Notes under the pieces: model-generated
What the model was told of the DNA's origin: nothing
What the model saw: only the letters and a program-made list of their open reading frames with translations
Databases searched by the model: none
Program-made: the position numbers and the translations under genes
DNA from: a bacterium
Lineage (GTDB): Bacteria > Patescibacteriota > Minisyncoccia > UBA6257 > 02-FULL-45-10c
Assembly: GCA_021786945.1 (NCBI GenBank)
Contig: JAJYMK010000003.1
Coordinates: 457,471 to 521,470 of the forward strand
DNA: 64,000 nt
Direction: 5' to 3'
Shown here: piece by piece, positions 33,921-63,875 of the stretch
How positions within the stretch are numbered: position 1 is the first letter of the stretch
How the letters are laid out: each line of letters opens with the position of its first letter

Positions 33921-33928
33921 GCCGCGCA

Positions 33929-34072
33929 AGCAGCCGCAGAGCAGAGAGAGACAATGCGGAAAAGCCTATGAAGCCCGACAAAATAGTGGCTAAGTAGGTC
34001 GGCTACGGAGCCGAAGTGTAGTAAGCCCCGCATCATCCAACAAAACACGGATGGTGCGGGGCCTTTTTTTAT
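33929..34072 (+). repeat. conserved 144-nt 3' element (copy 1) ending in long-stem intrinsic terminator
   Basis: 142/144 identical to 34571-34714; internal hairpins GCCCGAC...GTCGGC and CGGCT-ACGG-AGCCG; terminator stem CCCCGCATCATCC/GGATGGTGCGGGG + T7. Confidence 0.75.
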
Positions 34073-34495: not shown

Positions 34496-34570
34496 GTAAA
34501 CCAGGCCGATAGCGGCACGCAGCGTAGTTGCAGCGAAAGAAAAAGCAGCAAAAACGCAGTGAAAGAGAAA

Positions 34571-34714
34571 AGCAGCCGCAGAGCAGAGAGAGACAATGCG
34601 GAAAAGCCTATGAAGCCCGACAAAATAGTGGCTAAGTAGGTCGGCTACGGAGCCGCAGTGTAGTACGCCCCGCATCATCCAACAAAACACGGATGGTGCG
34701 GGGCCTTTTTTTAT
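34571..34714 (+). repeat. conserved 144-nt 3' element (copy 2) ending in long-stem intrinsic terminator
   Basis: Differs from copy 1 at two positions only (ccgAagtg/ccgCagtg; gtaAgcc/gtaCgcc). Confidence 0.75.
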
Positions 34715-49852: not shown

Positions 49853-49940
49853 TAAGTTTATTATTTTCTAAATTTTATCATTTCCTCAAGCCGTTTCGCT
49901 CATCCCAGCGGATTCACTCACTAGTTCCTCGCCTCGCTCG

Positions 49941-50075
49941 TTCTATATACTAAATTGTCGTGGAGAAGATTCGGAGCTCCGACATGCTTGGTTCCGATGT
50001 CGGAGTGAGACTCAGGAGTTGTTCCGCGCCGGACGGAACAAACTCCGATTCTCGTAGACAATTTAGTATATAGAA
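49941..50075. repeat. MITE-like hairpin-rich repeat element, copy A (~135 bp, perfect 19-bp terminal inverted repeats)
   Basis: TIR TTCTATATACTAAATTGTC / GACAATTTAGTATATAGAA; internal hairpins CTCCGACATGCTTGGTTCCGATGTCGGAG and GGAGTTGTTCCG...CGGAACAAACTCC; core ~95% identical to reverse complement of 63490-63604. Confidence 0.7.
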
Positions 50076-50128
50076 CACCTTGCCCGCTCGGCTGAGCAGC
50101 TTTCGGAAAAAGATAAGATTTAGAAAAA

Positions 50129-51211
50129 TTATAAGATATATCCCTTTTTATATAATAACTCAGCTGTCAAAATAGCGCCTCCGGCTGCACCTCTTATGGT
50201 ATTGTGCGACAAAGCCACAAATTTCCAATCAAATGCAAAATCCTCACGGAATCTGCCACAAGTAATACCCATTCCTCTTCCGTAATCCCTATCCAATTTA
50301 GTTTGTGGCCTGTTCTCTTCGGCAAAATAATAAATAAACTTTTCAGGCGAAGACGGCAAACCTAATCCCGCCAAAGGATTTTTAAAATTATTTATTGAGT
50401 CAAGAATTTGCCTTAACGACGGCTTCTTTTTGAATTTAACCGCCACGCTAGCCATATGTCCATCGGAACAAGCAACTCTTATACAAGTAGCTGAAATATT
50501 TATATTTTTTGCAGGTACAATCTTTTTGCCCTTTATAGATCCCAAAATTTTCAATGGTTCTTTTTCAGTTTTTTCTTCTTCTCCGCCTATAAACGGGATG
50601 CAATTGTCCACCATTTCCGGCCAGGATTCAAAAGTTTTTCCGGCTCCGGAAATAGCCTGCAAAGTAGTCACCGAAACAGTTTTTGGGCCAAACTTTTTCA
50701 AGGCATGAATTATGGGTAAATACGACTGGAGGGAGCAATTCGGCTTTACAACTAACAAACCATTTTTCCAGCCCCGATTTTTTCTCTGAATATCTATAAT
50801 ATCCAAGTGGTCGCAATTCAACTCCGGCATAATCATAGGCACGTCATCCGTCCATCTGTGAGCGGAATTATTGGAAACCACCGCCACGCCAGCGGCAGCA
50901 TATCGCTCCTCAACTTCTTTGATTTTTTGCTTATCTAAATCTATTGCTGAAAAAACCAAATCAACGCTTTTTACGATCTCATCAAAATCTTCTTCAACAG
51001 CCTTAATAATTATATTTTTTACGTTTTCGGGAATAGCAGTTTTCATATTCCACCTTCCATTCATTACCTCTCCATATTTTTTCCCGGCTGACTGCGGCGA
51101 TGCGGCAACAACCACAACATTAAACCATGGGTGATTTTCCAAAAGAGAAATAAATCTCTGTCCGACCATTCCCGTAGCTCCTAAAATACCCACATTTATT
51201 TTTTTATTCAT
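50129..51211 (-). CDS. asd: aspartate-semialdehyde dehydrogenase
   Basis: N-terminal VGILGATGMVGQRF NAD(P)-binding, active-site Cys region NCSLQ, 360 aa. Confidence 0.85.
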   Translation of the reverse strand: MNKKINVGILGATGMVGQRFISLLENHPWFNVVVVAASPQSAGKKYGEVMNGRWNMKTAIPENVKNIIIKAVEEDFDEIVKSVDLVFSAIDLDKQKIKEVEERYAAAGVAVVSNNSAHRWTDDVPMIMPELNCDHLDIIDIQRKNRGWKNGLLVVKPNCSLQSYLPIIHALKKFGPKTVSVTTLQAISGAGKTFESWPEMVDNCIPFIGGEEEKTEKEPLKILGSIKGKKIVPAKNINISATCIRVACSDGHMASVAVKFKKKPSLRQILDSINNFKNPLAGLGLPSSPEKFIYYFAEENRPQTKLDRDYGRGMGITCGRFREDFAFDWKFVALSHNTIRGAAGGAILTAELLYKKGYIL

Positions 51212-51223
51212 ATTTTTATTAAT

Positions 51224-53665
51224 TTATATTTTCAAAATATCAGCCAATACTCCGCCCGCCGTAACATCCGCTCCGGCACCCGGCCCTTGCACAACCAACG
51301 GTCTTTCTTTATATCTCTTACTGTAAAAAGCGAAAATATTGTCCGCGCCGCGGGTAGAAGCCAACGGATTATCTTTGGACACCATCTCCAATTTTGCCGA
51401 CGCCTCGCTCTTCTGAATCTTAGCCACATACCTCAAAACACAGCCAATTTTTTCGGCTTTTTCGGAAAGTTTTCTGAATTGAGAATCAAACTTCTTTAAC
51501 TCGGACATAAACACTTCCACGTCTTTTATTTTTCGTAATTTTTCCGGAACCAGGCTTTCTATTTTTATATCCTTAAAATCCAATTCCAAGCCGATTTCCC
51601 TGGCCAATATAAGCAGTTTTCTGCCTACATCCTGGCCGCTCAAATCTTCACGCGGATCCGGCTCGGTATAACCCAATTTTCTCGCCTTAGCCACAATTTC
51701 ACTGAAAGACACGCCGCTGCCAAAATTATTAAAAATATAGCTGAGTGTTCCCGAAAATATACCCTCGATTCTTTCTATTTTATCTCCGCTAGCAATCAAA
51801 TCCCTTAAAGTCGAGATAACCGGCAAAGCGGCGCCCACATTAGTTTCATAAAAAAACTTCTTTCTATTGCCGGCCAAAACATCCCTAAGTTTTTTATAAT
51901 CTTTCATTGGCGAAACATTGAATTTTTTATTGGGAGAAACAATACTGAAACCAGCTTCGGCAATTTTAATATATTTTTTGGAAATAAATTCGCTGGCCGT
52001 GCAATCGACAAAAACCTTATTGGCAAAATTAAATTTTTGCGCGTCATCAATCCATTTATCAAAATTTGCCGCTTCTCCTCCTTTTTCCATAATCTTTTTC
52101 CAATTTTTCAAATCAATTCCCCGTTCATTGAGTAGCATTTTTTTATCGTTGATGATTCCACAAACACGGAGAGCTCCGCCGAGTTCATAAATTTGTCCGA
52201 GTAATGTTCCGCCAATATTTCCGGTTCCAACTAAAAATATATTTTTTAAACCACCAAAAACAAACTGATCATGGATAAGATTTAATGCTTTTATTTTATC
52301 TTTACCTTCCACCGTCAAAGAAATATTTCTTTCCGATCCGCCTTGGGCAATAGCGGTAACACTTATTTTGCTGTCTCCCAATGCTTTGAATAATTTTCCC
52401 GAGATACCCGGTGTTCCGCGCATATTATCGCCGACAATGGCGATAATTGCCTGATTAGAAATAAAGCTCAAATTAACCGATTTATTTCCTATTTCTTTTT
52501 TAAATTCCTGTTTTAAAGAATCCAGAGCTGCTTCCAATTCGGACGTTTTAATAGCCAGACAAATAGTGTGCTCAGAAGACGCCTGGGAAATCAAAATAAC
52601 ATTGGCTTTGGCGCGCCTAGTGGCGTCAAAAACTCTGGCTGCGCTTCCGGGAATACCTATCAAACTGACTCCGCCGACAATCACCAGTGAAATATCGTCT
52701 ATAGAAGTAATTCCTTTCACCAAAGAAACTCCGTGATCGGGATTTTTAAGCACAAACGTACCTACAGCTGCTGGATTAAACGTATTTTTTATGACAATAG
52801 GAATTCCCTTTTTAACAGCCGGCAACATAGTGGCGGGATGGATAACTTTAGCTCCGAAATAAGCCAATTCTACAGCCTCCTCATAGCTCACCTCTTTCAA
52901 AACAACGGCATTTTTTACCAATTTAGGATCGGCGCTTAAAATTCCGTCTACATCCGTCCAAATCTCAACAATTTTGACGCTCAAAGCCGCACCGAAAATA
53001 GCAGCCGAATAATCGGAACCGCCTCTTCCCAAAGTCGTAGTTTCGTTATTTTTCGTTGAACCCAAAAAACCGGTAATCACGGGGATTCCCTGTTTATCTT
53101 TAAAATATTTTTTTATGATTTTATTTGTTTCCGAAAAATCCACCGTCGCATTCACAAAATTATCATCCGTTTTCACCAATTCTCTGGCATCGACAAAATA
53201 ACTTTTTTTGGAAAGCCCGTCCTTAATATATCCCGACACTATAAAAGCCGAGAATCTTTCTCCGAAGCTGGCCACCAAATCTAGTTGTTTGGAAGAAGCT
53301 TCTTTTTTGGAAAATATTTTCTCTAAAACTTCGCTTAATTCTCCAATTAGCTTTTCAACGTATTCAAAGGCAATTGCCTGATTATTTTTGGATTTTATCA
53401 ATTTTTTAATTGATTCTATATGGCGCTTTTTTATTAACCCAACCTCATCTTTATATTTTATGTCTCCAGCCGCAGCAAATTTAGCCGACTTCAAAAGCTG
53501 ATCGGTAATTCCCTGAAAAGCCGAAACCACCATAGCGACTCCATCCCCTCGATTATGCTCGGGGCAAGCTTTTTTTGCTGCATCAACTACTATTTTAGAC
53601 GCCTTCTTAATCATTTCCGGAGTACCTACCGACGAACCTCCAAATTTTAATATTTTCGTAATCAT
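51224..53665 (-). CDS. thrA: bifunctional aspartokinase / homoserine dehydrogenase
   Basis: N-terminal aspartokinase (KFGGSSVG…), central ACT region, C-terminal homoserine dehydrogenase (LVGTGNIGGTLL… NAD-binding); 813 aa. Confidence 0.85.
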   Translation of the reverse strand: MITKILKFGGSSVGTPEMIKKASKIVVDAAKKACPEHNRGDGVAMVVSAFQGITDQLLKSAKFAAAGDIKYKDEVGLIKKRHIESIKKLIKSKNNQAIAFEYVEKLIGELSEVLEKIFSKKEASSKQLDLVASFGERFSAFIVSGYIKDGLSKKSYFVDARELVKTDDNFVNATVDFSETNKIIKKYFKDKQGIPVITGFLGSTKNNETTTLGRGGSDYSAAIFGAALSVKIVEIWTDVDGILSADPKLVKNAVVLKEVSYEEAVELAYFGAKVIHPATMLPAVKKGIPIVIKNTFNPAAVGTFVLKNPDHGVSLVKGITSIDDISLVIVGGVSLIGIPGSAARVFDATRRAKANVILISQASSEHTICLAIKTSELEAALDSLKQEFKKEIGNKSVNLSFISNQAIIAIVGDNMRGTPGISGKLFKALGDSKISVTAIAQGGSERNISLTVEGKDKIKALNLIHDQFVFGGLKNIFLVGTGNIGGTLLGQIYELGGALRVCGIINDKKMLLNERGIDLKNWKKIMEKGGEAANFDKWIDDAQKFNFANKVFVDCTASEFISKKYIKIAEAGFSIVSPNKKFNVSPMKDYKKLRDVLAGNRKKFFYETNVGAALPVISTLRDLIASGDKIERIEGIFSGTLSYIFNNFGSGVSFSEIVAKARKLGYTEPDPREDLSGQDVGRKLLILAREIGLELDFKDIKIESLVPEKLRKIKDVEVFMSELKKFDSQFRKLSEKAEKIGCVLRYVAKIQKSEASAKLEMVSKDNPLASTRGADNIFAFYSKRYKERPLVVQGPGAGADVTAGGVLADILKI

Positions 53666-53861
53666 TTTTATTTATTAATAATTATTTTTCCAAAAAAATT
53701 CCCAGCTCTTAAGCCGGGGTTAGTTTATTTTTATACAATTCAACTAAGACCTCGGCTAAGGGCTTGTGGTAGTAGTTGTAGTTGTAAAAACGACTTTATT
53801 CATTACTTCTTTATCATAACAACCGTCAATTTTTAGTCAAAGCCGGAAAAGGTGAATAAAA

Positions 53862-53905
53862 ATCCCCCTGTTCATAACAGAACAAGGGGATGTTTTTTTT
53901 TACTT
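53862..53905. terminator. bidirectional intrinsic terminator
   Basis: ATCCCCCTGTTC-ATAACAG-AACAAGGGGAT with flanking A5 and T9. Confidence 0.7.
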
Positions 53906-54532
53906 CCTGAAAGGAAGCACGCCATCGATAAGGCCGTAAGCTTTCGCTTCTTCGGCGGACATATAGAGGTTCCTCTCCATGTCCTTCTGGACCTTTTCGA
54001 AGGTCTGGCCGCAATGCTTAGCGATGATCTCGGTAAGCACCTTCTTGTTGAGCTGCATTTCCTTGGCCTCGATTTCGATGTCCGTTGCCTGACCGGAAAT
54101 GCCGCCGCCCATTATCAGGGGCTGGTGGATCATGATACGGGAGTTTGGCAGCGCGAAACGCTTACCTTTTGTTCCCGACGCCAGGATCACCGCACCGAAG
54201 CTCATCGCCATCCCCATACACACGGTAGAGACAGGGCTCTTGATGAACTGCATAGCATCGTAAACAGCCAAGCCGGCCGTTACCATGCCGCCGGGCGAAT
54301 TTATGTAAAGGCAGATATCTTTGGAATCATCTTGTGAATCCAAGTACAGCATCTGCGCGATCAGTGAATTCGCTGACTCGGTAGTGAACTCGCCTTCGTA
54401 ACCACCCACAAAGATAATGCGGTCGGTTAAAAGACGGGAGTAGATATCGTAAGCCCTTTCCACGCCAGCCACCTTCCCGATGACAGTCGGGATAACGCTG
54501 ACGGCTTTTATCACGCCACGTTCCTTTTTCAT
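53900..54532 (-). CDS. clpP: ATP-dependent Clp protease proteolytic subunit (G+C-rich paralog)
   Basis: [11 protein letters not shown]…[15 protein letters not shown], catalytic Ser in GMAMSFG, His in MIHQP; strong AAGGAGGAAGG SD; coding sequence visibly G+C-richer than the adjacent clpP. Confidence 0.85.
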
Positions 54533-54619
54533 AATCCTTCCTCCTTACCAAGAATTTCTGAATCGAACTTAATTTTCAAGCTCCTAATTTAAACCTAAAT
54601 TAAAAATAAAACTCCGTCA

Positions 54620-54652
54620 ATAATAAAAGACCTCTGTTATATAGAGGTCTTT
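54620..54652 (-). terminator. intrinsic terminator between the two clpP genes
   Basis: GAAAGACCTCT-ATATAACA-GAGGTCTTT + TATT on minus strand. Confidence 0.6.
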
Positions 54653-54660
54653 CAAAAAAA

Positions 54661-55263
54661 TTATTTTTTAACTTTTATTATCTCGTCCACTAAACCATAT
54701 TCTTTTGCTTCCTGCGGACTAAGCCAATAATCTCTGTCTGTATCTTTTTGTATTTTACTCAAAGATTGACCCGTGTGTTTAGCTAGAATCTGATTAAGCT
54801 GTTCTCTCATCCTCAAAATATGCTTTGCACTGATTTCGATCTCGGTAGCTTGGCCGCCGATTCCCTCGCTCATCACCTGATGGATCAAAACTTCGGAATT
54901 CGGAAGTATAAATCTTTTTCCTTTAGCTCCCGCGGCCAGAAGTACGGCGCCCATAGAAGCCGATATTCCTACACCAATGGTAGAAACATCACACTTCACA
55001 TGCTGCATAGTATCATAAATAGCCAATCCCGCACTCACGGAACCGCCCGGAGAATTTATATAAAGCTTAATGTCTTTTTTGGGATCCTCGTGTTCCAAAA
55101 AAAGCAGCTGGGCAATAATTGTATTCGCCATACCATCACTTACAGGACCGCCCAAGAATATTATCCTCTCCTTTAAAAGGCGAGAATAAATATCGTAAGC
55201 CCTCTCACCCATAGAACTTTTTTCAATAACTGTCGGGATTAAATATTCATTTTTTTCATTCAT
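54661..55263 (-). CDS. clpP: ATP-dependent Clp protease proteolytic subunit (genome-typical A+T-rich paralog)
   Basis: [28 protein letters not shown], Ser in GISASMG, His in LIHQV; 200 aa. Confidence 0.9.
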
Positions 55264-55458
55264 ACCAGGTCAGTAGAAATTCAATAATAATTATTTATAT
55301 TGCGACTTAAATTAAATTTATATATTTATTACCAAACAATGATTTAATTCAATACCATGGTCGCTTCGCGACCCAATTGAATTTTCACTGCCTGGCATAT
55401 ACATAATTATAACTAATTTTCACAAAATATTAATACCCGACACGGCCATAGTCAATAG

Positions 55459-55487
55459 TTGACATTTTGACCTAAAAATTTTAGTTT
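55459..55487 (+). promoter_or_regulatory. candidate promoter TTGACA-17-TAGTTT overlapping palindrome GTCAATAGTTGAC
   Basis: -35 consensus hexamer; -10 weak; perfect 13-bp palindrome 55451-55463 overlaps -35. Confidence 0.35.
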
Positions 55488-55542
55488 GTAGATAGTTTAA
55501 AGCTCTTTAAAAAAGCTACCCAAGCTAACAGGAGGATATGGT

Positions 55543-56127
55543 ATGGAAAGCAAAATAAAAGTTGTTCTGGAAGGCATCGGCCGCGGCCTCCTCATGCATA
55601 AATTTTGCATCGAGGCTTACGAAAACCAGGTAAAGAAGAACAAAGCCAAGCCTTCGCCTGAAGAAGAGGCGGAAAGAGTGGCTTATCGCCTGGCGCCCGA
55701 AAAAGAATCCGAAAAAGGACAGCTCTGCCTTCCGGCCGAGCACTTCATAGGATCTCTTATCTCGGCGGGAGCTGGCTTCAAGCAAGTCGGCGGCGGCAAG
55801 AAAACCTACAAAAGCGTACTCACCGGCAATCTGGATATCTGCCCAGAAAACGTGGGCCTCACGGACGCGAAAGGCACTCCGCTGAAGGACTACAAAATAG
55901 ACAGTCGCCCGGTATGTATCAGGGCAACTAAAGGCCGGATTATCCGCCACCGCCCGCTTATAGAAGTAGGCTGGCGCGCGGAATTCACATTAGTACTCTC
56001 GGACGATTCGGTTCCGCTAGAGGTAATCAAGGCGGTTCTCGAAGAAGCCGGTAAAAGCAAATGCGTCGGCGATTTTCGCCCGCGCTTCGGCCAGTTCCGA
56101 GTTATTTCCGTGGACAAAATTCAGTAA
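55543..56127 (+). CDS. hypothetical protein (194 aa) on a G+C-rich segment
   Basis: AGGAGG SD 7 nt upstream of ATG; no family recognised; followed by (NNGGT)n array and terminator. Confidence 0.55.
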   Translation: MESKIKVVLEGIGRGLLMHKFCIEAYENQVKKNKAKPSPEEEAERVAYRLAPEKESEKGQLCLPAEHFIGSLISAGAGFKQVGGGKKTYKSVLTGNLDICPENVGLTDAKGTPLKDYKIDSRPVCIRATKGRIIRHRPLIEVGWRAEFTLVLSDDSVPLEVIKAVLEEAGKSKCVGDFRPRFGQFRVISVDKIQ

Positions 56128-56156
56128 ATCAAGATTGCCTTCGCTCCACTTTACAT

Positions 56157-56282
56157 GAGGTATGGTAAGGTGAGGTGCGGTTAGGTGAGGTGTGGAATAC
56201 TCAAACCTAAATTGCTTTGACGTACCAAGGTCTGGTGCGGCGAGGTGAGGTGAGGTTTGGTAAGGTTGGGTAGGGTGTGGTA
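56157..56282 (+). repeat. period-5 (NNGGT)n pentanucleotide repeat array in two blocks (7 + 11 units)
   Basis: Block 1: at-GGT aa-GGT ga-GGT gc-GGT ta-GGT ga-GGT gt-GG (56157-56195). Block 2: aa-GGT ct-GGT gc-GGC ga-GGT ga-GGT ga-GGT tt-GGT aa-GGT tg-GGT ag-GGT gt-GGT (56227-56282). Contains >=7 AGGTG (Shine-Dalgarno-like) cores. Confidence 0.8.
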
Positions 56283-56286
56283 AAAC

Positions 56287-56325
56287 AAAAGCCCTCCGGT
56301 GAAAATCGGAGGGCTTTCTTTTTTA
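56287..56325. terminator. bidirectional intrinsic terminator
   Basis: AAAGCCCTCCG-GTGAAAAT-CGGAGGGCTTT + T-run; between convergent 55543-56127(+) and tig(-). Confidence 0.75.
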
Positions 56326-56329
56326 TTAA

Positions 56330-57469
56330 CTATTTAGAGCTTTCCAAAAAATCAAATACTTTTTTGTTTTTCACTATATCATAACTGTAACTATAGATTC
56401 TTTGTGGATCTATTTTTTGTGCATGCTCTGGGCGCAAAGTCGCCAAAAACTTATTGCTTTCCATTTCCACTTCTTCTGAAGTCGGCTCTATTTTTTCATC
56501 TTTGGCTATTTTATACAAAACCAAATTGGAAACAACGCTTTTTTCGGCTTCGGGTCGCAATTTCTTCCTGACTTCCTCCTCTTTAAAATCTTTTTTGAAA
56601 TACATCTTATATTCTTCCAGCATTCCGGACAGAGTTTTTTCTATCATCACTTCAGGAATCTCAATTTTTGAATCTTTTCCAATTTCTTCAAGTGCTTTTA
56701 TTCTCAACCTCTCGGATTCCTTCAATTCCTTTTCTTTTTTAATACCGTCTTTTATGCTGTTTTTCAATTCTTCCAAGGTTTTAAAATTTCCGAGCTCTTT
56801 TACCAACTCGTCATTCAACTCTGGTAATTGTCTCTCAAAAACGGAAGCTAATTTTACTCCGTCAAATTCCTCTCCTTCTTTATGACCAACTATTTTTTCA
56901 TCCAATCCTTTTTCTAAGTGTGAATGACCCAAAATAAACTGATCCGGCTTTCCTTTGTATTCTATATTCACCACATCTCCCATTTTTGCGGGATTTGCAG
57001 ATCTTACTATTTTTGCCCTGGAATTTAAAATCCAATTTATAGCCTCCTGAACCTCGTCATCGCCTGCGGTTATCTCTCTTTTTTCCTCAAAAATCTTTTT
57101 GGCGATTTTTTTATAATCTCCAAGTTTTACTTCCGGAAAAACAACCAAATCTATCTTGAAAATAATTCCTTCTGGTTTTTCTTCTAGGTCAATTTTAGGC
57201 TGATCAACAATTTCCCATTCATTTTCCTGGGTTATTTCTTTCAATATCTCCCTTATAGCTTTTGTAGCGGCTTCTCCGAAAACTTTATCCTTGTCTATAA
57301 CGGCATCGGCCATTTGTTTGGGTGCTGCGCCTTTCCTGAACCCTTTAATTTCCACATCTTTTAAAGCTTCTTGATAAACAACTTCCCAATATTTAGAAAA
57401 TTCTACTTGGGTCAGAGTAACCTCCAATTGCTTAACAGAACCCGGAAGATCTTTGTGAGTATATTTCAT
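56330..57469 (-). CDS. tig: trigger factor
   Basis: N-terminal ribosome-binding signature GFRKGAAP, central PPIase-like and C-terminal domains; 379 aa. Confidence 0.9.
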   Translation of the reverse strand: MKYTHKDLPGSVKQLEVTLTQVEFSKYWEVVYQEALKDVEIKGFRKGAAPKQMADAVIDKDKVFGEAATKAIREILKEITQENEWEIVDQPKIDLEEKPEGIIFKIDLVVFPEVKLGDYKKIAKKIFEEKREITAGDDEVQEAINWILNSRAKIVRSANPAKMGDVVNIEYKGKPDQFILGHSHLEKGLDEKIVGHKEGEEFDGVKLASVFERQLPELNDELVKELGNFKTLEELKNSIKDGIKKEKELKESERLRIKALEEIGKDSKIEIPEVMIEKTLSGMLEEYKMYFKKDFKEEEVRKKLRPEAEKSVVSNLVLYKIAKDEKIEPTSEEVEMESNKFLATLRPEHAQKIDPQRIYSYSYDIVKNKKVFDFLESSK

Positions 57470-57591
57470 AAATAATTTAAATTACTTGTGATAGATATAT
57501 TATCATAAGTAATTTAAAAATAAAAATCCTTTTTTAGTCTCAGATTAAACTGAATCCCCCTCTTTTTCAGAGGGGGATAAATTTATAAGCT

Positions 57592-58737
57592 TTATTGAAT
57601 TCCTAACTTTGTAAGCATCGCTTTCATGCCGTTATAAGAAGTGGATAATACAAATAAATTATTTGCAGTCCATCCATAATTCAAAGAGGCTCCCGTTTTC
57701 GAGAAACTAATATATCTGGTTGGGAGATTATTAGCCTTACCATCTTTAAAACTGCTGCCAATTTTTGTTCCAGGATTTTGAATATAAAGATTAGTCAAAC
57801 TCGCAGAACTTTCAATTTTTGCCATTAAAGTTTTAGCGACAGCAACATCGGCGCCATTTTTTAATTTAGCTATTAAACCAAACCATGACCCATTGGCATC
57901 ATAAAAAATAACACTAGTAAAATCATCTTCAAAAAACGGAGTTAATTCAGCTGAAGTTATCTCCGGCAAAAACAAAGGGAGCGAATCAGCAAAAACTAAC
58001 TGCCCACCCTCATTCGAAAGAACAACTTCTTTTAAGTAAGTCTGTGAAGCGGGCTTATTATTTGATTCTGCTATTAATAAATCTCTTACTGAAGCTAAAG
58101 TTGTAGATCCCACGACATTCAAATTAATTGAGCTGTCGGCAGGATTGGGAACCAATAAAGAAATATGTGGTTTTAAAACTGGTTGCAAAGGAACTTCCGG
58201 GGTTGTAGTTGCAACATCTTCGGTTGTTGTAGCCATTTCTTCAGTTGAAGTGGCGACTGGCGGAATATTTTCCGGAGTAGTTACTGTTGTGGAAGGAGTT
58301 TCGGGGATATTTGTTTGCGGGGCCGGAGTATTAACGGAAATTACCGGTTTGGCGAACATCGGATAAATATAAACGTATCCGGCATAAGCGGCGCCGGCCA
58401 ATACCAAAATTAAAATTGTTATCAAAACAAAAATTTTTCCTTTCTTTTTTGGAGCTTCAGCCGGCGGTAAAACACCCTCAGCGGCACCCGGTCTGATCAT
58501 TCCCTCTTCTTTGGATAAATCATCCAACTCCGAAGAAGCCTGTTTTTTAATTTCAGGCGGAGTAAAAGCTTCTGGTACTGGATTTTCTCCTCCGGATTGT
58601 TTAACAGACTGAAGATCGGACTGCATGGTCCTTAAAGTTATTTCCGGCGGAGGAGGTGGAGGTGGCATCGAAGGCCCACCCTGTCCCTGGCCCGGATTAC
58701 TCGTTTCTCCCCAATTTTGTTGTTTAAAATCTTCCAT
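57592..58737 (-). CDS. Pro/Thr-rich membrane protein, hypothetical
   Basis: Poly-Pro N-terminus (PPPPPPP), single TM helix, T/P-rich linker, C-terminal globular domain. Confidence 0.5.
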   Translation of the reverse strand: MEDFKQQNWGETSNPGQGQGGPSMPPPPPPPEITLRTMQSDLQSVKQSGGENPVPEAFTPPEIKKQASSELDDLSKEEGMIRPGAAEGVLPPAEAPKKKGKIFVLITILILVLAGAAYAGYVYIYPMFAKPVISVNTPAPQTNIPETPSTTVTTPENIPPVATSTEEMATTTEDVATTTPEVPLQPVLKPHISLLVPNPADSSINLNVVGSTTLASVRDLLIAESNNKPASQTYLKEVVLSNEGGQLVFADSLPLFLPEITSAELTPFFEDDFTSVIFYDANGSWFGLIAKLKNGADVAVAKTLMAKIESSASLTNLYIQNPGTKIGSSFKDGKANNLPTRYISFSKTGASLNYGWTANNLFVLSTSYNGMKAMLTKLGIQ

Positions 58738-58832
58738 AATTATTTTAATTAATACTTAACTTAATTATATAACAGCATAAAAAATAAAAAACGCCGTCCT
58801 TTGTGGATAGCGTTTTTATTGTTGAAACTTAC

Positions 58833-60965
58833 TTATTTGTCCGTCTCGGGTTTATTCAAAGCCTTTAAGGACAAACTAACTTTTCCCCCTTCGGCTCTGA
58901 TTACTTTTGCCCTGACAAAATCACCAAGCTTAACAACGTCTTCAACTTTTTTAACAAATCCTTCTTTCAATTCGGAAACGTGGATCATGCCGTCTTTATT
59001 TGGACCAAATTCCACTATAGCTCCAAAATCCAAAATCTTTACAACGTTTCCTTCAACAATCTGTCCGACTTCTATATCTGTAACAATGGATTTAACAATT
59101 TTAAATGCGGCTTCGGCGGTTTCCTTGTTCGGACCCGCAACATAAACTTTTCCGCTCTGATCGATATCGATAGTTGTAGCTCCCGTAGCGGCAATAATAC
59201 CGTTAATAGTTTTTCCTCCGGGGCCTATAACTTCACCGATTTTTTCTGGATTAATAGTTAAAGACAAAACAACCGGGGCGTATTCGGAAAGCTCTTTTCT
59301 GGGTTCTTTCAAAGCTCCTGTAATTGTTTTCAAAATATGAAGTCTGGCCAATTTAGCTTGTGCCAAAACCTTTTCAACCATTTCCATATTTATACCGTTA
59401 ATCTTAACGTCCAATTGTATCGCGGTAACACCCTCTTCGGTTCCGGCAACTTTAAAATCCATATCACCATAATGATCTTCTGGGCCTTGAATATCGGTAA
59501 GTACTTTATACTTCTCACCCTTTTCATCGGTTATCAGACCCATAGCAATACCGGCAGCCGGTCTTCTGATTGGAACTCCGGCATCCATCAAAGATAATCC
59601 TCCTGCACAAACAGTGGCCATAGAAGAAGAACCATTCGAAGAAAGAATTTCCGAAACTACACGGATAACATAAGGAAAAGCTTCATAAGAAGGCAACAAC
59701 GGACGTAAAGCTTTTTCGGCTAAAGATCCGTGGCCTATGTCTCTTCTGCCCGGACCCCTGAATCCTCCGGTTTCACCAACGGAATAAGGCGGAAAATTAT
59801 AATGAAGCATAAATCTCCTCTTTATTGAATTTCTCATGCTTTCCACGAGCTGTTCGGAGCCCGGAGGAGCAATTGTGGTAACAGATAAAGATTGTGTATT
59901 TCCTCTTACGAATAAAGCCGATCCATGAACGCGGTTCAAAATGCCAACTTCGGCATAAAGATCCCTGACTTCATCCAATTTTCTGCCGTCTGGCCTCTTT
60001 TCTTCATCAAGAATTTTTTTATGCAAAATTTCATCGAGCCTGGACTCCATATAAACCTCGGCGGCAATATATTCTTTTTCTTCACCACCCATATCTTCCA
60101 GCATGAGCCTCATATCGTCTTTTATGCGATAAAGCATTTCTTCTCTTTTAATCTTGTCCGGATTATAAAGGGCTTCTTCCAATTTATTGCCAAAAAAGTC
60201 ATTAAGTTTTTGCTCTAAATCTTTTTCAGGAACAGCCAAATAAACTTCTACTTTAGGTTTAGCCAATTCTTTTGCTACAGTCTCCTGGAATTTTGTAAGC
60301 TCGGTAATTTGCTGCTGAGCCATAGCAAATCCGCCGACAACATATTTTTCGTTAACCTCATTTCCGCCAAGCTCAATCATATTTATCTTATCTTTGGTTC
60401 CGGCTACAAAAGCATCGAAATCCAAATCGGACTCCTTGTCTTTTATATCCATCAAAGATGGATTTACCAAAACCTCTTCTTTGTTTTTGAATTTAGAAAT
60501 TTTAACTCCGGCAACAGGTCCGCCCCAAGGAATCCTGGATACGGTCAATGCCATAGAAGCGGTCAATAATCCGATAAAATCCGGATCATTAACACTATCA
60601 ATCTGCAAAACAGTCACTACCACCTGCACTTCCCTGCGCATGGCAGAGTTGAACAAAGGCCTGATTGTCCTGTCTATTAATCTTCCCGAAAGAATGGCTT
60701 CGTCTGAAGACTTACCCTCTCTTCGTGAAAATCTGCTGCCCAAAATTTTACCGGCGGCATAAAACTTTTCTTCGTAATTTACCGTCAACGGAAAATAATC
60801 CATTCCCGCTTTATCCGACTTACCCATCACCACCGTGGCCAAAACCACAGTATCGCCATATCTGCCAATAATGGCAGAATCAGCCTGTTCGCCAACCCTT
60901 GAAACCTCAAAAGAAAGCGGCCTGCCCGCAAACTCGGTTTTAAAAACTCTTCTTTTTATATCCAT
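58833..60965 (-). CDS. pnp: polyribonucleotide nucleotidyltransferase (PNPase)
   Basis: Two RNase PH-like domains, KH and S1 domains at C-terminus (…GKVIGPGGKTIN…; …VGQIVEGNVVKILDFGAIVEF…); 710 aa. Confidence 0.95.
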   Translation of the reverse strand: MDIKRRVFKTEFAGRPLSFEVSRVGEQADSAIIGRYGDTVVLATVVMGKSDKAGMDYFPLTVNYEEKFYAAGKILGSRFSRREGKSSDEAILSGRLIDRTIRPLFNSAMRREVQVVVTVLQIDSVNDPDFIGLLTASMALTVSRIPWGGPVAGVKISKFKNKEEVLVNPSLMDIKDKESDLDFDAFVAGTKDKINMIELGGNEVNEKYVVGGFAMAQQQITELTKFQETVAKELAKPKVEVYLAVPEKDLEQKLNDFFGNKLEEALYNPDKIKREEMLYRIKDDMRLMLEDMGGEEKEYIAAEVYMESRLDEILHKKILDEEKRPDGRKLDEVRDLYAEVGILNRVHGSALFVRGNTQSLSVTTIAPPGSEQLVESMRNSIKRRFMLHYNFPPYSVGETGGFRGPGRRDIGHGSLAEKALRPLLPSYEAFPYVIRVVSEILSSNGSSSMATVCAGGLSLMDAGVPIRRPAAGIAMGLITDEKGEKYKVLTDIQGPEDHYGDMDFKVAGTEEGVTAIQLDVKINGINMEMVEKVLAQAKLARLHILKTITGALKEPRKELSEYAPVVLSLTINPEKIGEVIGPGGKTINGIIAATGATTIDIDQSGKVYVAGPNKETAEAAFKIVKSIVTDIEVGQIVEGNVVKILDFGAIVEFGPNKDGMIHVSELKEGFVKKVEDVVKLGDFVRAKVIRAEGGKVSLSLKALNKPETDK

Positions 60966-61173
60966 AGGCTTAACGGAATTACGAAACTATACAAAAGCGC
61001 AAAACCAATTGTTCCGGGCTTTTGTATAACCTCGTAGCTCCGTATATTAATTTTAATAATTTTTATTTCTTCCGACAGGAAGTTTTTTGCGAAGTCTATT
61101 CTCGACTTCCGGCGTCTAAAATTAAACATTCAAAACTCCGGAAATCTAGAATAAATCTAAGACTAACATATAT

Positions 61174-61581
61174 TTATAGTTGATCAATATGCTCCTTATT
61201 ATTAATATCCTGATTTTCTGCTTTAAAAAATCCAATCCTAGAAAGAGATATCAATATTATTATTGTAGTACATACCGGTCCTAAAAAATTAAAAAAGAAA
61301 ATACTATAGTTATGGGCTTCTGGCGTAGGGGTTTCGTTAAGACTATATCCGAGAAGCGTTAAGGATGCCAGTACTAATGAAATAAAAGAGAGTAAATAAA
61401 AGATATTAAAAATAACTCTGTGGCGCGACGTAGAAAAATCAAGCTTAAAATAAATAAAAAGCGACAAAGCGACTAAAAAAATGGGGAAAAAATAAAACGG
61501 TGAATGATTAGCAAGTAAAAATCCAAAATATAAAGATATTAGTAATACCACCGAATTTAAAATAGCAAATATAACATTCAT
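61174..61581 (-). CDS. hypothetical integral membrane protein (135 aa)
   Basis: 4 hydrophobic helices; no family recognised. Confidence 0.45.
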   Translation of the reverse strand: MNVIFAILNSVVLLISLYFGFLLANHSPFYFFPIFLVALSLFIYFKLDFSTSRHRVIFNIFYLLSFISLVLASLTLLGYSLNETPTPEAHNYSIFFFNFLGPVCTTIIILISLSRIGFFKAENQDINNKEHIDQL

Positions 61582-61585
61582 TGAT

Positions 61586-62086
61586 TTATATTTTAAATAA
61601 AGCTTTGGGTATTTTTTCGATATTTATGAATTGATCGGCTATTTCCTGAATTTTTCCGGAAGTTGTCCTTCCGAAAGCCGCCACTTCAACACTCCTTCCT
61701 TTTCCGAACTGCAGATATTGAATTAATGGCACAAAATCGCCATCACCGGTTACTAAAATCACGACATCCAAAAAATCGGACATCCTCAAAGCATCAACAG
61801 CCATGCCAATATCCCAATCGGCTTTTTTGGAGCCGTCCGGATTTATCTGTAAATCTTTTACTCTCAATTCAAGGCCACAGCGTGTCAATGAATCAAAAAA
61901 GCCTTTCTCACCTAAAGCGGTATCGCTTTTTACAACGTAGGCTATAGAACGTATTAATTTTCTGCCCGCCACCAATTCCTTAATCAATTCCTTATAATTC
62001 ACCCTGGATTTATAAAGATTTTTTGAAGAATGGTATAAATTTTGAATATCTATAAAAATACCGACTCTCTGTTCTTTGTGTCTCAT
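61586..62086 (-). CDS. NYN-domain (LabA-like, PIN-fold) protein
   Basis: VGIFIDIQNLYHS…, DVVILVTGDGDFVPL motifs typical of NYN/LabA family. Confidence 0.75.
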   Translation of the reverse strand: MRHKEQRVGIFIDIQNLYHSSKNLYKSRVNYKELIKELVAGRKLIRSIAYVVKSDTALGEKGFFDSLTRCGLELRVKDLQINPDGSKKADWDIGMAVDALRMSDFLDVVILVTGDGDFVPLIQYLQFGKGRSVEVAAFGRTTSGKIQEIADQFINIEKIPKALFKI

Positions 62087-62117
62087 ATTATTATGTTATG
62101 TTAATTCCAAAAATAAT

Positions 62118-62145
62118 TCTAGCCGCTATGACAGCGGCTAGATAA
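62118..62145 (-). terminator. intrinsic terminator for rpsO
   Basis: TAGCCGCTGTCATAGCGGCTA hairpin + AATTATTTTT on minus strand. Confidence 0.65.
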
Positions 62146-62149
62146 TATA

Positions 62150-62416
62150 TTAAGCTTTTAATCCTAATTTTTTAACCAAAGAAGTGTAGTTTTTTGGCTT
62201 ATTCTTTTCAAGATAATCCAAAAGTCTCTTTCTCTTTCCAACCATTTTCAACAAACCTCTCCTGGAATGATTGTCTTTCCTGTGTTTTTTAAGATGATCG
62301 GTTAATTCCTCGATCTGTTTAGTCAAAAGACCAACCTGAACCTCGGCTGAACCTGTATCGGAATCGGTCTGTTTGAATTCTTTAATAATATTCGATTTTT
62401 TTCTTGTTGTTAGCAT
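62150..62416 (-). CDS. rpsO: 30S ribosomal protein S15
   Basis: GSAEVQVGLLTKQIEELTDHLKKHRKDNHSRRGLLKMVGKRKRLLDYL is near-consensus S15; 88 aa. Confidence 0.95.
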   Translation of the reverse strand: MLTTRKKSNIIKEFKQTDSDTGSAEVQVGLLTKQIEELTDHLKKHRKDNHSRRGLLKMVGKRKRLLDYLEKNKPKNYTSLVKKLGLKA

Positions 62417-62526
62417 AACTTATGTTTATTTTTAAACTTTTTAAATTATATACGAAAAATCAGAAAAAATCAAGCCCTCCAGAATAGAGTTAATTTACTG
62501 GTTCTGTCGCAAAATATTTTGGTATA

Positions 62527-63450
62527 ATGGTGTATATGGCAGATATTAATACATTTTTAACGCAATATCTGGATTATCTGGAGCTAGAAAAAAACAGATC
62601 TATTAAAACCAGAGAAAATTACGGGCGATACCTGAAAGCTTTTTTCGAATACAACAAAATCGCAAAACCAAACGATATAACCCTTGATTCGGTAATGCAA
62701 TTCCGCCTGCATCTGGCCAGAGAAAGTAAAGACGGAAAAAACCTCAAAAGAATAACTCAATCCTACTATATAATCGCCTTAAGAAATTTTTTAAAATTTC
62801 TGATAAAACGGGATATTGAAACCCTGTCCCCCGATAAAATAGAGCTTCCCAAAATAGCCAGAAGACAAATAGAAATAATCGAATATTCGGAACTTGAAAG
62901 ACTGCTGAATGCCCCCGACACCGGCACCTTTCGCGGACTGCGGGATAAGGCAATATTGGAAACACTTTTTTCCACCGGCCTCCGTGTTTCCGAGCTCTGC
63001 AATTTGGACAGATACATAAATCTGGAAAGGGGTGAAATCGCCGTGAGAGGAAAGGGTGAAAAATTAAGGGTAGTTTTTCTTTCGGATGGCGCCAAAGAAG
63101 CCATCAAAAACTATCTTGATAAAAGAAGCGATGCCTTGGATAAATTATTCGTAAGCCTGTCTAAAGAATCGGGAAATAAAAAACCAAAAGTAATCGGAAA
63201 AATAACTTCGCGGGCAGTTCAAAGACTGATTGATTTTTATAAACGCAAAGCCGGAATTACAAAGAAAATAACACCTCACCAAATAAGGCACCAGTTTGCC
63301 ACAGATCTCCTGATGAATGGCGCGGACCTGCGTTCCGTCCAGGAACTTTTGGGCCATAGCAATATTTCCACCACCCAAGTTTATACGCACATCACCAACA
63401 AACAACTTAAAGAAATTCACGAAAGCTTCCACGGAAAAAGAAGAAAATAA
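62527..63450 (+). CDS. tyrosine site-specific recombinase (XerC/XerD-like)
   Basis: N-terminal SAM-like domain (…ENYGRYLKAFFEY…), catalytic R…HxxR…Y (…HQIRHQFATDLLMNGADLRSVQELLGHSNISTTQVYTHI…); start may be ATG at 62536. Confidence 0.85.
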   Translation: MVYMADINTFLTQYLDYLELEKNRSIKTRENYGRYLKAFFEYNKIAKPNDITLDSVMQFRLHLARESKDGKNLKRITQSYYIIALRNFLKFLIKRDIETLSPDKIELPKIARRQIEIIEYSELERLLNAPDTGTFRGLRDKAILETLFSTGLRVSELCNLDRYINLERGEIAVRGKGEKLRVVFLSDGAKEAIKNYLDKRSDALDKLFVSLSKESGNKKPKVIGKITSRAVQRLIDFYKRKAGITKKITPHQIRHQFATDLLMNGADLRSVQELLGHSNISTTQVYTHITNKQLKEIHESFHGKRRK

Positions 63451-63483
63451 GACCATAATTATTATTTAACCTTAACTACTCTA

Positions 63484-63608
63484 CACACCGAATTGTCTAC
63501 GAGAATCGGAGTTTGTTCCGTCCAGCGCGGAACAACTCCTGAGTCTCGCTCCGACATCGGAACCGAGCATGTCGGAGCTCCGAATCTTCTCCACGACAAT
63601 TTGGTGTG
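63484..63608. repeat. MITE-like hairpin-rich repeat element, copy B (inverted relative to copy A)
   Basis: TIR CACACCGAATTGTC / GACAATTTGGTGTG (1 mismatch); core ~95% identical to reverse complement of copy A. Confidence 0.7.
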
Positions 63609-63785
63609 CAAAATCATTTATTATAAATAATTATTTTTGAGGAACATCTCGGAGGCGGCTTTGCGCCGAAAGCGAAGCAAATTTTTACGGAAGTAAAAAT
63701 TATGCTGTTTCCGAAAAGATAATTATTTATAAAATTTGGAAATGAGTCTGGCTTACTACATATATTTATATTAAAATACAAAAAT

Positions 63786-63867
63786 GCTCCCGTGGCGGAA
63801 CTGGCATACGCGCGTGGCTTAGGACCACGTCCCGAAAGGGTTAGAGGTTCAAATCCTCTCGGGAGCA
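63786..63867 (+). tRNA. tRNA-Leu (anticodon TAG)
   Basis: Acceptor GCTCCCG/CGGGAGC, anticodon stem-loop CGTGG-CUUAGGA-CCACG, long variable arm, T-arm AGAGGTTCAAATCCTCT. Confidence 0.85.
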
Positions 63868-63875
63868 CAAAAAAA

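What the first reader, a model, noticed from the sequence alone, without database searches (positions are those of the whole stretch)
49941..63608. Two inverted copies of a ~125-135-bp hairpin-rich MITE-like element bracketing a 13.4-kb segment; one copy abuts a Xer recombinase gene and tRNA-Leu
Copy A (49941-50075) and copy B (63484-63608) share a ~115-bp core that is ~95% identical in inverted orientation. Each has its own terminal inverted repeats (19-bp perfect in A; 14-bp with 1 mismatch in B). Both share the AATTGTC..GACAATT ends and contain two strong internal hairpins. This architecture is typical of miniature inverted-repeat transposable elements or REP-like structured repeats. Copy A sits between aroK and asd. 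Copy B sits between the Xer-type recombinase and tRNA-Leu(TAG). The flanked segment carries asd, thrA-like, both clpP, the G+C-rich orphan with the pentamer array, tig, pnp and rpsO. Inverted copies could mediate inversion of this block.
Basis: seen in the sequence. Interest (0 to 1): 0.6.

Follow-up and report, generated by a model that had tools for sequence, protein, structure and literature searches.

The report
Small structured intergenic repeat in Patescibacteria
The two inverted copies are real members of a rare, non-coding, hairpin-forming DNA repeat that appears at different intergenic sites in a few uncultivated Patescibacteria; it resembles known small mobile bacterial repeats, and nothing links it to the neighbouring recombinase gene or to an inversion.

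Summary
Observation confirmed. The arms 49949-50074 and 63480-63605 are 94% complementary, and the 111-nt cores differ at 3 sites. I call the element E1. It is 135-150 nt, non-coding and richer in G+C than its host. It folds as a 20-bp closing stem, a 5-bp helix and two hairpins on a three-way junction.

Compensatory substitutions support the fold: 14 pairs changed on both sides, against 4.6 in shuffles. E1 occurs in three unrelated gene contexts. It is missing from both orthologous spacers of the closest sampled relatives. At copy B it is a clean 133-nt insertion/deletion difference from a relative with 92%-identical Xer.

Only copy A has a possible target-site duplication. No transposase was found among the window ORFs examined, and there is no match in Rfam, phage or plasmid records. 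The Xer gene is the conserved housekeeping one, so its adjacency is coincidental. Gene order in the 13.4-kb block is the same in relatives that lack E1.

A related element (E2) lies next to copy B, and copy A is nested in the tip of a longer hairpin.

Best reading: a low-copy structured intergenic repeat resembling ERIC, YPAL and other MITE-like elements. It is a new family of a known kind. A mobile structured-RNA gene is not excluded.

The parts
49940..50076 (+). E1 copy A, sense on the + strand. Closing stem 49940-49959 with 50057-50076. Helix P2 is GAGAA 49963-49967 with TTCTC 50049-50053. Hairpin P3 is 49977-50005. Hairpin P4 is 50015-50046.
   Evidence: (covariance model R1, 158.6 bits).
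63476..63608 (-). E1 copy B, sense on the - strand. The core is 63491-63601. Its arm on the high-coordinate side lacks the outer 8 nt that would pair with CTACTCTA (63476-63483). The limits come from the alignment with the empty site in L032.
   Evidence: (154.5 bits).
49864..50127 (-). Outer long hairpin (E5) that fills the asd-aroK spacer. Its arms are 49864-49939 and 50077-50127, and E1 copy A sits in its apical part. With E1 removed, E5 folds better on the gene-sense (-) strand.
   Evidence: -47.5 against -39.4 kcal/mol; whole spacer -113 kcal/mol. The same composite is 94% identical in L003.
49927..49940 (.). Left copy of the flanking direct repeat, CCTCGCCTCGCTCG. It is a candidate target-site duplication at copy A only.
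   Evidence: 12 of 13 positions match the right copy, with one gap; p about 0.011 against shuffled flanks.
50078..50090 (.). Right copy of the flanking direct repeat, CCTTGCCCGCTCG.
63619..63734 (+). E2, a related structured element with a long A+T-rich stem and a three-way junction. It lies about 10 nt from copy B and 51 nt upstream of tRNA-Leu(tag), on the same strand as the tRNA.
   Evidence: R1 hit of 30.3 bits, E = 1e-5. Model R2. Orthologous copy in L032. Covariation.
62527..63450 (+). Housekeeping Xer-type tyrosine recombinase. It is context only and not part of the element.
   Evidence: Pfam. Homologues 68-94% identical among the listed hits, many named Patescibacteria. Same synteny in relatives without E1.
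63786..63868 (+). tRNA-Leu(tag), context only.

Best explanation
E1 is a low-copy, non-coding, relatively G+C-rich intergenic repeat of 135-150 bp, found in a narrow lineage of Patescibacteria.

Shown: it folds as a 20-bp closing stem, an internal loop, a 5-bp helix (GAGAA/UUCUC) and two hairpins on a three-way junction. The stems are kept by compensatory substitutions. The junction strands and the inner ends (AATTGTCGTRGAGAA ... TTCTCGTAGACAATT) are conserved in sequence. It sits in unrelated spacers, usually a few to 36 nt after a stop codon. It is present or absent between close relatives.

Inferred: it is a non-autonomous mobile or ectopically copied DNA cassette of the bacterial MITE/ERIC/YPAL kind. 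It tends to land in or beside other dyad-symmetric DNA. Copy A sits in the tip of the E5 hairpin and copy B lies about 10 nt from E2. Once inserted it is transcribed with its neighbours. Selection on the hairpin fold keeps it intact, most plausibly as a stable 3'-end, processing or barrier structure in the transcript.

Also inferred: the near-identity of the two cores within one genome, against much more diverged arms, is best explained by gene conversion between the copies; RecA is encoded in the window.

The inverted arrangement around the 13.4-kb block and the neighbouring Xer gene are incidental.
For: - Reality and fold; 95.3% of cells paired; 14 pairs changed on both sides against 4.6 +/- 1.7 in shuffles (0 of 500 reach 14); 0-2 such pairs when the partners are slid.
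- Dispersal: the asd-aroK spacer and the Xer-tRNA-Leu spacer in the window. L006/L007 lies between the H+-pyrophosphatase and trigger factor genes; both hairpins are rewritten there but still pair. L003 lies beside sigma-factor, HAD and RluA genes.
- Presence/absence at copy B: the relative L032 (Xer 92%) has Xer-E2-tRNA-Leu without E1, and the alignment gives a clean 133-nt insertion/deletion difference. L029-31 (Xer 94%) and L035 (Xer 90%) also lack E1 there.
- Presence/absence at copy A: the relative L023 (asd 93%) has a 72-nt spacer holding only a simple hairpin.
- Non-coding: the only long ORF across copy B (63462-63617, 51 aa) has no counterpart across copy A. A short ATG-started frame read in copy A has no ATG at the same place in L006 (read).
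- Dyad-associated sites and the 13-14-nt flanking repeat at copy A.
- Core against arms: 3 of 111 differences against 9 of 20, Fisher p = 1.2e-6. RecA is at 22063-23070.
- Published analogues with the same properties (under 200 bp, TIRs, long stem-loop transcripts, filled and empty sites, YPAL targets at or near dyad symmetry with variable duplications, copy numbers as low as 1-22): PMC2229807 and PMC10969869.
Against: - No consistent target-site duplication.
- No transposase or matching insertion sequence among the window ORFs examined with Pfam or in the gene lists of the fetched contigs. Several window ORFs were not scanned.
- Copy number is very low. There are 2 copies in 64 kb, and only two other lineages turned up in very large collections, although those scans needed exact 18-22-nt matches.
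- Only three independent lineages of E1 exist, so the covariation statistics rest mainly on L006 against the rest.
- Spacers of relatives are mostly unalignable, so gain and loss cannot be told apart except at copy B.
- Both arms of copy A changed in concert. That is unexpected if a transposase reads the arm sequence.
- Transcription is not shown. Consensus promoter and terminator scans show nothing specific.
Confidence: 0.5

Rival explanations
1. E1, together with E2, is a family of genes for a small structured RNA. Candidates are a protein-binding RNA or a ribozyme. It would be made from one strand, with one or two paralogues per genome that relocate by duplication.
For: - Compensatory changes occur in all helices of E1 and E2.
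- The sense strand folds more stably than the antisense strand in 8 of 8 elements, by 1.7-12 kcal/mol.
- G.U states outnumber A.C states 13 to 6 on the sense strand, and 8 to 2 in E2.
- The junction strands are conserved in sequence while the stems and loops vary.
- Covariance-model hits between E1 and E2 are reciprocal and agree on orientation, at 25-33 bits.
- E2 sits upstream of tRNA-Leu(tag), on the same strand, in both the window and L032.
Against: - No promoter or terminator signal is specific to the element.
- E1 folds almost as well on the antisense strand (-66 against -69.7 kcal/mol).
- The location differs between relatives that are 90-94% identical in the neighbouring proteins.
- There is no Rfam match even at E = 10.
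- The G.U against A.C excess is not significant (p = 0.08).
- The cross-family model scores are no higher than each family's own reverse-strand scores.
Confidence: 0.22
2. E1 is a classical TIR/TSD MITE, a deletion derivative of an insertion sequence, moved by a transposase that binds the terminal inverted repeats.
For: - The arms are 20-bp inverted repeats.
- A 13-14-nt direct repeat flanks copy A.
- Filled and empty sites exist.
- Size and lack of coding capacity fit the definition in PMC2229807.
Against: - No duplication at copy B, at L006 or at any E2 site.
- The outer arms differ between copies through paired transitions, so pairing rather than arm sequence is what is kept.
- There is no TA at the termini.
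- No transposase was found among the window ORFs examined or in the fetched loci.
- No similar DNA in the plasmid or phage collections.
Confidence: 0.12
3. The inverted pair is a recombination substrate. Either it is a site for the adjacent Xer-type recombinase, or it is an inversion switch for the 13.4-kb block.
For: The copies are inverted, copy B starts 25 nt after the recombinase stop codon, and RecA is encoded in the window.
Against: - The recombinase is the conserved housekeeping Xer. It sits in the same rpsO-Xer-tRNA-Leu synteny in relatives that have no E1.
- The E1 copies in L006 and L003 have no recombinase nearby.
- Gene order and orientation of the block are the same in relatives without E1, and in the two ENA contigs that span copy A.
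- GC skew is negative on both sides of copy A and through most of the block.
- The ends do not have the reversed-order attC boxes, and no dif-like layout of two 11-nt arms around a 6-nt centre was seen (sequence read directly).
Confidence: 0.04
4. The pair is a chance local duplication or an assembly artefact.
For: Only two copies lie in the window. Short-read contigs break at them.
Against: Copy A is spanned identically by two independent ENA assemblies, and the Xer-side junction of copy B is present in a Logan contig. Related copies exist in other organisms.
Confidence: 0.02

Closest known systems
YPAL / RU-2 of Yersinia (168 bp), as described in PMC2229807
   Same: Both are small, non-coding and not A+T-rich, and both form a long stem-loop. 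YPAL targets span or adjoin regions of dyad symmetry, its target duplications vary from 3 to 26 bp, and its mobility was inferred from filled and empty sites in close relatives. E1 copy A sits in the tip of a hairpin with a 13-14-nt flanking repeat, copy B adjoins E2, and both window sites are empty in relatives.
   Different: There is no sequence similarity. E1 has a three-way junction, very low copy number and a different phylum. Duplications are absent at most E1 sites.
ERIC / IRU (127 bp) of enterobacteria (PMC2229807 and PMC10969869)
   Same: Both are imperfect palindromes of about 130 bp in intergenic regions, found in either orientation. For ERIC the transcript structure matters: it affects the stability of flanking mRNA. 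I add from my own knowledge that stem pairing in ERIC is maintained.
   Different: ERIC has TA ends and target duplications, tens to hundreds of copies, and a simple long hairpin. E1 has none of these, and its transcription is untested.
CIR repeats of Caulobacter and Brucella (PMC2229807)
   Same: Both are branched RNA models, with two arms joined by a linker, whose structure is conserved across species.
   Different: CIR lacks terminal inverted repeats and carries GANTC methylation motifs. E1 has a long closing stem and no such motif.
REP / REPIN elements with RAYT transposases (PMC3116915 and PMC3337134)
   Same: Both are hairpin-forming, non-autonomous intergenic repeats in which the pairing is conserved.
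   Different: REPINs are two short REP units, occur in high copy number, and are tied to a RAYT gene. No RAYT or Y1 transposase was seen here, and E1 is longer and branched.
Correia (NEMIS) elements and Rickettsia palindromic elements (PMC2229807)
   Same: All are 100-155-bp repeats with terminal inverted repeats. Rickettsia palindromic elements also live in a reduced genome.
   Different: Correia elements have a TA duplication and an IHF site. Rickettsia palindromic elements insert into genes and can be translated. E1 is strictly intergenic in the copies seen.

Membership tests
Bacterial MITE-like repeat (criteria of PMC2229807 and PMC10969869) | Small (under about 200 bp) and without coding capacity | tested here: met
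   The element is 133-148 bp. No ORF is shared by copy A, copy B and L006.
Bacterial MITE-like repeat | Terminal inverted repeats | tested here: met
   The repeat is a perfect 20 bp in copy A and in L006, and 14 bp with one G.T in copy B.
Bacterial MITE-like repeat | Target-site duplication of constant length | tested here: not met
   Only copy A has a flanking direct repeat (13-14 nt, p about 0.011). Copy B, L006 and the four E2 sites have none. The comparison of filled copy B with the empty site in L032 shows no duplication.
Bacterial MITE-like repeat | Multiple dispersed copies, with filled and empty sites among relatives | tested here: met
   Three independent contexts, with empty orthologous sites in L023, L029, L032 and L035. 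Copy number is low.
Bacterial MITE-like repeat | A parent insertion sequence or transposase sharing the terminal repeats | tested here: inconclusive
   None was found among the window ORFs examined or in the fetched loci, and nothing similar in plasmid or phage records. Several window ORFs were not scanned, and the rest of the roughly 0.7-Mb genome could not be searched.
Bacterial MITE-like repeat | TA at the termini and A+T-rich composition | tested here: not met
   The ends are GTTC...GAAC or GACT...AGTC. G+C is 0.46-0.57, against mostly 0.32-0.45 per kb in the window.
REP / REPIN | Short REP units in inverted pairs, high copy number, and a RAYT gene in the genome | tested here: inconclusive
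   The architecture differs (branched, 135-150 nt) and there are 2 copies in 64 kb. No RAYT was seen in the window, but the whole genome was not available.
Curated structured RNA family (Rfam 15) | A match to a covariance model | tested here: not met
   Only tRNAs reach the gathering score. Nothing relevant appears at E up to 10 over copy A, copy B and E2, or at E up to 1 over L003, L007 (identical to L006 over the element) and L025.
Cis-regulatory leader or riboswitch | A fixed position and orientation relative to one gene family | tested here: not met
   E1 lies next to asd/aroK, Xer/tRNA-Leu and PPase/tig, in both orientations.
Integron attC site or Xer dif site | RYYYAAC ... GTTRRRY boxes at the base of the stem within cassette arrays (attC), or 11-nt arms around a 6-nt centre (dif), plus a functional link to the recombinase | tested here: not met
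   The ends read GTT...AAC, the reverse order, in copy A, and GACT...AGTC in copy B and L006. There is no cassette array. The recombinase sits at the same place in relatives without E1.

The most novel reading that the evidence does not exclude
E1 and E2, and perhaps the other G+C-rich cassettes E3 and E5 seen in the same spacers, may be a Patescibacteria-specific class of mobile genes for a strand-specific structured RNA. The RNA would have a conserved three-way-junction core, for example a small ribozyme or a protein-binding RNA. Such genes would hop between intergenic spacers as interchangeable cassettes without any protein of their own.
Probability: 0.15. Interest if true: 0.7.

Novelty: new member of a known kind. 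Interest (0 to 1): 0.38.

Why it matters
From my own knowledge, Patescibacteria have tiny genomes and few mobile elements have been described in them. My two literature searches found no description of small structured repeats in this group.

This work defines a new repeat family, E1, and a probable sister family, E2, with covariance models. It shows that the asd-aroK and Xer-tRNA-Leu spacers turn over quickly between close relatives. It also removes a false lead: the Xer gene and the inverted arrangement do not mark a mobile or invertible 13.4-kb segment.

If the fold acts in RNA, these cassettes would be a handle on transcript 3'-end handling in organisms that cannot be cultured.

Tried and rejected
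- Rfam at gathering and permissive thresholds: nothing.
- Exact-pattern scans of viral contigs with three patterns: 0 hits.
- blastn of E1 against plasmid and phage records: no match.
- Most single-match loci from the metagenome scan (L004, L005, L008-L017) and L002 from the genome scan are chance hits. They lack the partner end or the rest of the core.
- Search of about 340 kb of held sequence for empty palindromic targets of the form ACTACTCT...AGAGTAGT: none.
- Target-site duplications, ungapped and gapped, at eight sites: only copy A is marginal.
- Outer hairpin E5 as a member of the E3 family: not significant.
- A direct MAFFT alignment of E1 with E2 put E2 in a different register. The E1-E2 relationship therefore rests on the covariance-model hits and is only probable.
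- Reading the sequence for hammerhead, TPP-riboswitch, attC or dif features: none fit.
- Literature searches for small repeats or structured RNAs in Patescibacteria: nothing relevant.
- Look-up of the 696,638-nt NCBI contig that carries the 100%-identical 304-aa form of the window's Xer failed, so genome-wide copy number is unknown.
Full report
**Observation**

The window holds one outstanding inverted repeat. Its arms are 49949-50074 and 63480-63605, 126 nt and 94% complementary. Reading and aligning the two regions gives a shared core, AATTGTCGTGGAGAAG...CTCGTAGACAATT. The core occupies 49953-50063 and 63491-63601, is 111 nt long, and has 3 differences.

Sub-motifs of 32-33 nt occur exactly twice in the window, with none expected in shuffles. 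Either strand folds far better than shuffled sequence, at -69.7 and -66 kcal/mol (z about -8).

The host is a low-G+C Patescibacteria genome. Independent assemblies carry the same sequence. Two ENA contigs span copy A, and Logan contigs stop inside copies A and B.

**Anatomy of E1**

I call the element E1. On the strand that reads AATTGTCGTGGAGAA, which I call "sense", it has four parts:
- a closing stem, a perfect 20 bp in copy A;
- a small internal loop;
- a 5-bp helix, GAGAA/UUCUC;
- a three-way junction bearing two hairpins, at 49977-50005 and 50015-50046 in copy A.

**Other copies**

An exact-pattern scan of one genome for each of 185,579 species found E1 only in one Patescibacteria MAG contig, L003. 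There it occurs twice, in an 858-nt tandem duplication. That duplication carries a 94% identical copy of the whole window asd-aroK spacer, including a few nucleotides of both genes. Its neighbours are sigma-factor, HAD and pseudouridine-synthase genes.

A metagenome scan with a pattern that matches both ends of the element found one more lineage, L006 = L007. There E1 lies between the H+-pyrophosphatase and trigger factor genes. In that copy both hairpins are rewritten but still pair, one hairpin has gained a sub-hairpin, and the closing stem is a different perfect 20-mer. The inner ends and junction strands are unchanged.

On the four-sequence alignment, 95.3% of cells pair. Fourteen pairs changed on both sides, against 4.6 +/- 1.7 in shuffles (0 of 500 reach 14), and against 0-2 when the partners are slid. 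The fold is therefore under selection, but the test rests on only three lineages.

**Presence and absence in relatives**

I fetched orthologous loci through asd and Xer homologues.

| Spacer | Locus (identity to window protein) | Content |
|---|---|---|
| asd-aroK | window | 276 nt, almost entirely a long hairpin (E5, 49864-50127) with E1 in its tip |
| asd-aroK | L023 (asd 93%) | 72 nt with a simple hairpin |
| asd-aroK | L021 (84%) | a different element, E2 |
| asd-aroK | L025 (85%) and L026-28 (80%) | a third G+C-rich structured element, E3 |
| Xer-tRNA-Leu | window | E1 then E2 |
| Xer-tRNA-Leu | L032-34 (Xer 92%) | E2 only |
| Xer-tRNA-Leu | L029-31 (94%) | E3 |
| Xer-tRNA-Leu | L035/36 (90%) | none of these elements |

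The window and L032 align well around copy B. E1 is a clean 133-nt insertion/deletion difference (63476-63608) that replaces AATAT, with no duplicated flank. That comparison also shows that the CAAAA following copy B is pre-existing flank. Copy B therefore lacks the outer 8 nt of one arm.

**Mobility signals**

Only copy A is flanked by a direct repeat, CCTCGCCTCGCTCG / CCTTGCC-CGCTCG (p about 0.011). The other E1 and E2 sites have none. No transposase is encoded among the window ORFs I examined (20 between 554 and 37979, and 9 between 47620 and 63450) or in the precomputed gene lists of the fetched contigs. Several window ORFs were not scanned.

E1 has no similar DNA in plasmid, phage or viral collections. 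It has no Rfam match.

The sites share one feature: they adjoin dyad symmetry and stop codons. Copy A sits in the tip of E5. Copy B starts 25 nt after the Xer stop codon and ends about 10 nt before E2. The L006 copy starts 6 nt after a stop codon.

**The neighbour E2**

The E1 model R1 hits window 63619-63734(+) over its full length at 30 bits. It also hits the elements in L021, L032 and L035 at 25-29 bits, always on one strand. A model built from E2 in turn hits the L006 copy of E1 at 33 bits.

E2 has the same plan as E1: a long stem, a short helix GGAA/UUCC, and two hairpins. It shares motifs with E1: ATTGTC..GAGRAA..TCGGAG at the 5' side and TTYC.CG.A.AGAYAATT at the 3' side. Fourteen of its 41 pairs covary among four loci. 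E2 occupies three unrelated sites.

I regard E1 and E2 as probable sister families. This is not proven, because the cross-family scores are no higher than each family's own reverse-strand scores, and MAFFT aligns the two in a different register.

**Which strand**

The sense strand is the more stable in 8 of 8 elements, by 1.7-3.8 kcal/mol in three E1 copies, 6.1 in the L003 copy, and 4-12 in E2. G.U states outnumber A.C states 13 to 6, which is not significant (p = 0.08). This leans towards a strand-specific RNA or single-stranded DNA fold, more clearly for E2. The orientation relative to neighbouring genes varies.

**Xer and inversion**

The recombinase is the housekeeping Xer. The listed homologues, many named Patescibacteria, are 68-94% identical. 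It always sits in rpsO-Xer-tRNA-Leu synteny, with or without E1.

The thrA...rpsO block has the same order and orientation in relatives that lack E1, and in the two ENA contigs that span copy A. GC skew is negative on both sides of copy A and through most of the block. An inversion mediated by RecA (22063-23070) is possible in principle, but none is seen.

**An unresolved oddity**

Copies A and B differ at 3 of 111 core positions but at 9 of 20 homologous arm positions. All the arm differences are transitions, and most are compensated across the stem (Fisher p = 1.2e-6). Conversely, the arms of copy B resemble those of L006 although their hairpins differ.

Core and arms therefore have different histories. 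Gene conversion of the core between the two copies in one genome is the simplest explanation, but it is an inference.

**Comparison with known kinds**

By the published criteria for small bacterial repeats (PMC2229807; PMC10969869), E1 meets four: size, lack of coding capacity, terminal inverted repeats, and filled/empty sites. It fails on TA ends, A+T richness and a constant target duplication.

The closest analogue is YPAL/RU-2. YPAL is not A+T-rich, has variable duplications, and has targets at or near dyad symmetry. ERIC is close in size and in the role proposed for its transcript structure.

**Verdict**

This is a real, newly defined, low-copy structured intergenic repeat of a known general kind (confidence 0.5). 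The main rival is a mobile small-RNA gene family (0.22). The Xer and inversion ideas are not supported. Interest is moderate to low.

Noticed in passing
window 63619-63734 (+); L032 10955-11077; L021 1920-2041 (-); L035 16104-16224: E2 is a roughly 115-nt structured element: a long A+T-rich stem, a three-way junction and conserved junction strands. It occurs at three unrelated sites. In the window and in L032 it lies upstream of tRNA-Leu(tag) on the same strand.
   Followed up: yes
window 49864-50127 (-): E5 is a long interrupted hairpin that fills the whole asd-aroK spacer, from 1-2 nt after the asd stop codon to 11 nt before the aroK start codon. E1 copy A is nested in its tip. It is not significantly similar to E3.
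   Followed up: partly
L025 1284-1538; L026 6004-6204; L029 3148-3300: E3 is a third family of G+C-rich structured intergenic element (GCGGAA..GCGATAATCGC..GCTAAATCGC..CTCAAGARCGAAACA). It occupies the asd-aroK spacer in two relatives and the Xer-tRNA-Leu spacer in another. It has no Rfam match in L025, the only E3 locus scanned.
   Followed up: partly
L029 3349-3516; L035 11051-11290: In these relatives the tRNA-Leu(tag) gene is nested in fragments of a second tRNA-Leu. A 5' fragment (GCTCCCGTGGCG) precedes it and, in L035, a 3' fragment (GTGCGGGATTCAAATCCTCTCGGGAGCA) follows it. A 45-75-nt G+C-rich segment lies in between. It looks like an insertion into, or replacement of, the tRNA gene.
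   Followed up: no
L003 1950-3300: This is an 858-nt tandem duplication in a MAG contig. It contains a copy of the entire asd-aroK spacer of the window, including about 25 nt of the asd 3' end and 13 nt of the aroK 5' end. The copy is split by a 175-nt insertion. It could be a segmental copy or an assembly cycle.
   Followed up: partly
window 33928-34072 and 34570-34714: A 145-nt direct repeat with 2 mismatches. Each copy ends in a strong terminator-like hairpin, GCCCCGCATCATCC...GGATGGTGCGGGGC, followed by a T run.
   Followed up: partly
window 63702-63722 and the same place in the other E2 copies: A mini-ORF, ATG CTG TTT CCG AAA AGA TAA (MLFPKR*), is conserved inside E2. L021 reads MLFPKK* and L032 reads MLFLKR*. 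It may simply reflect the conserved structure.
   Followed up: no
window about 63257 (inside the Xer gene): Two independent ENA contigs (the sources of L018 and L019) both stop at this point, about 220 nt before copy B. The cause is unknown.
   Followed up: no
window 6529-13500 (-): A 2323-aa ORF with internal repeats of about 1.5 kb (repeat families D1-D3, D5 and D11).
   Followed up: no
window 60973-61043: A 33-nt-arm imperfect palindrome just downstream of pnp (I10). It scores weakly, 12 bits, with the E1 model.
   Followed up: no
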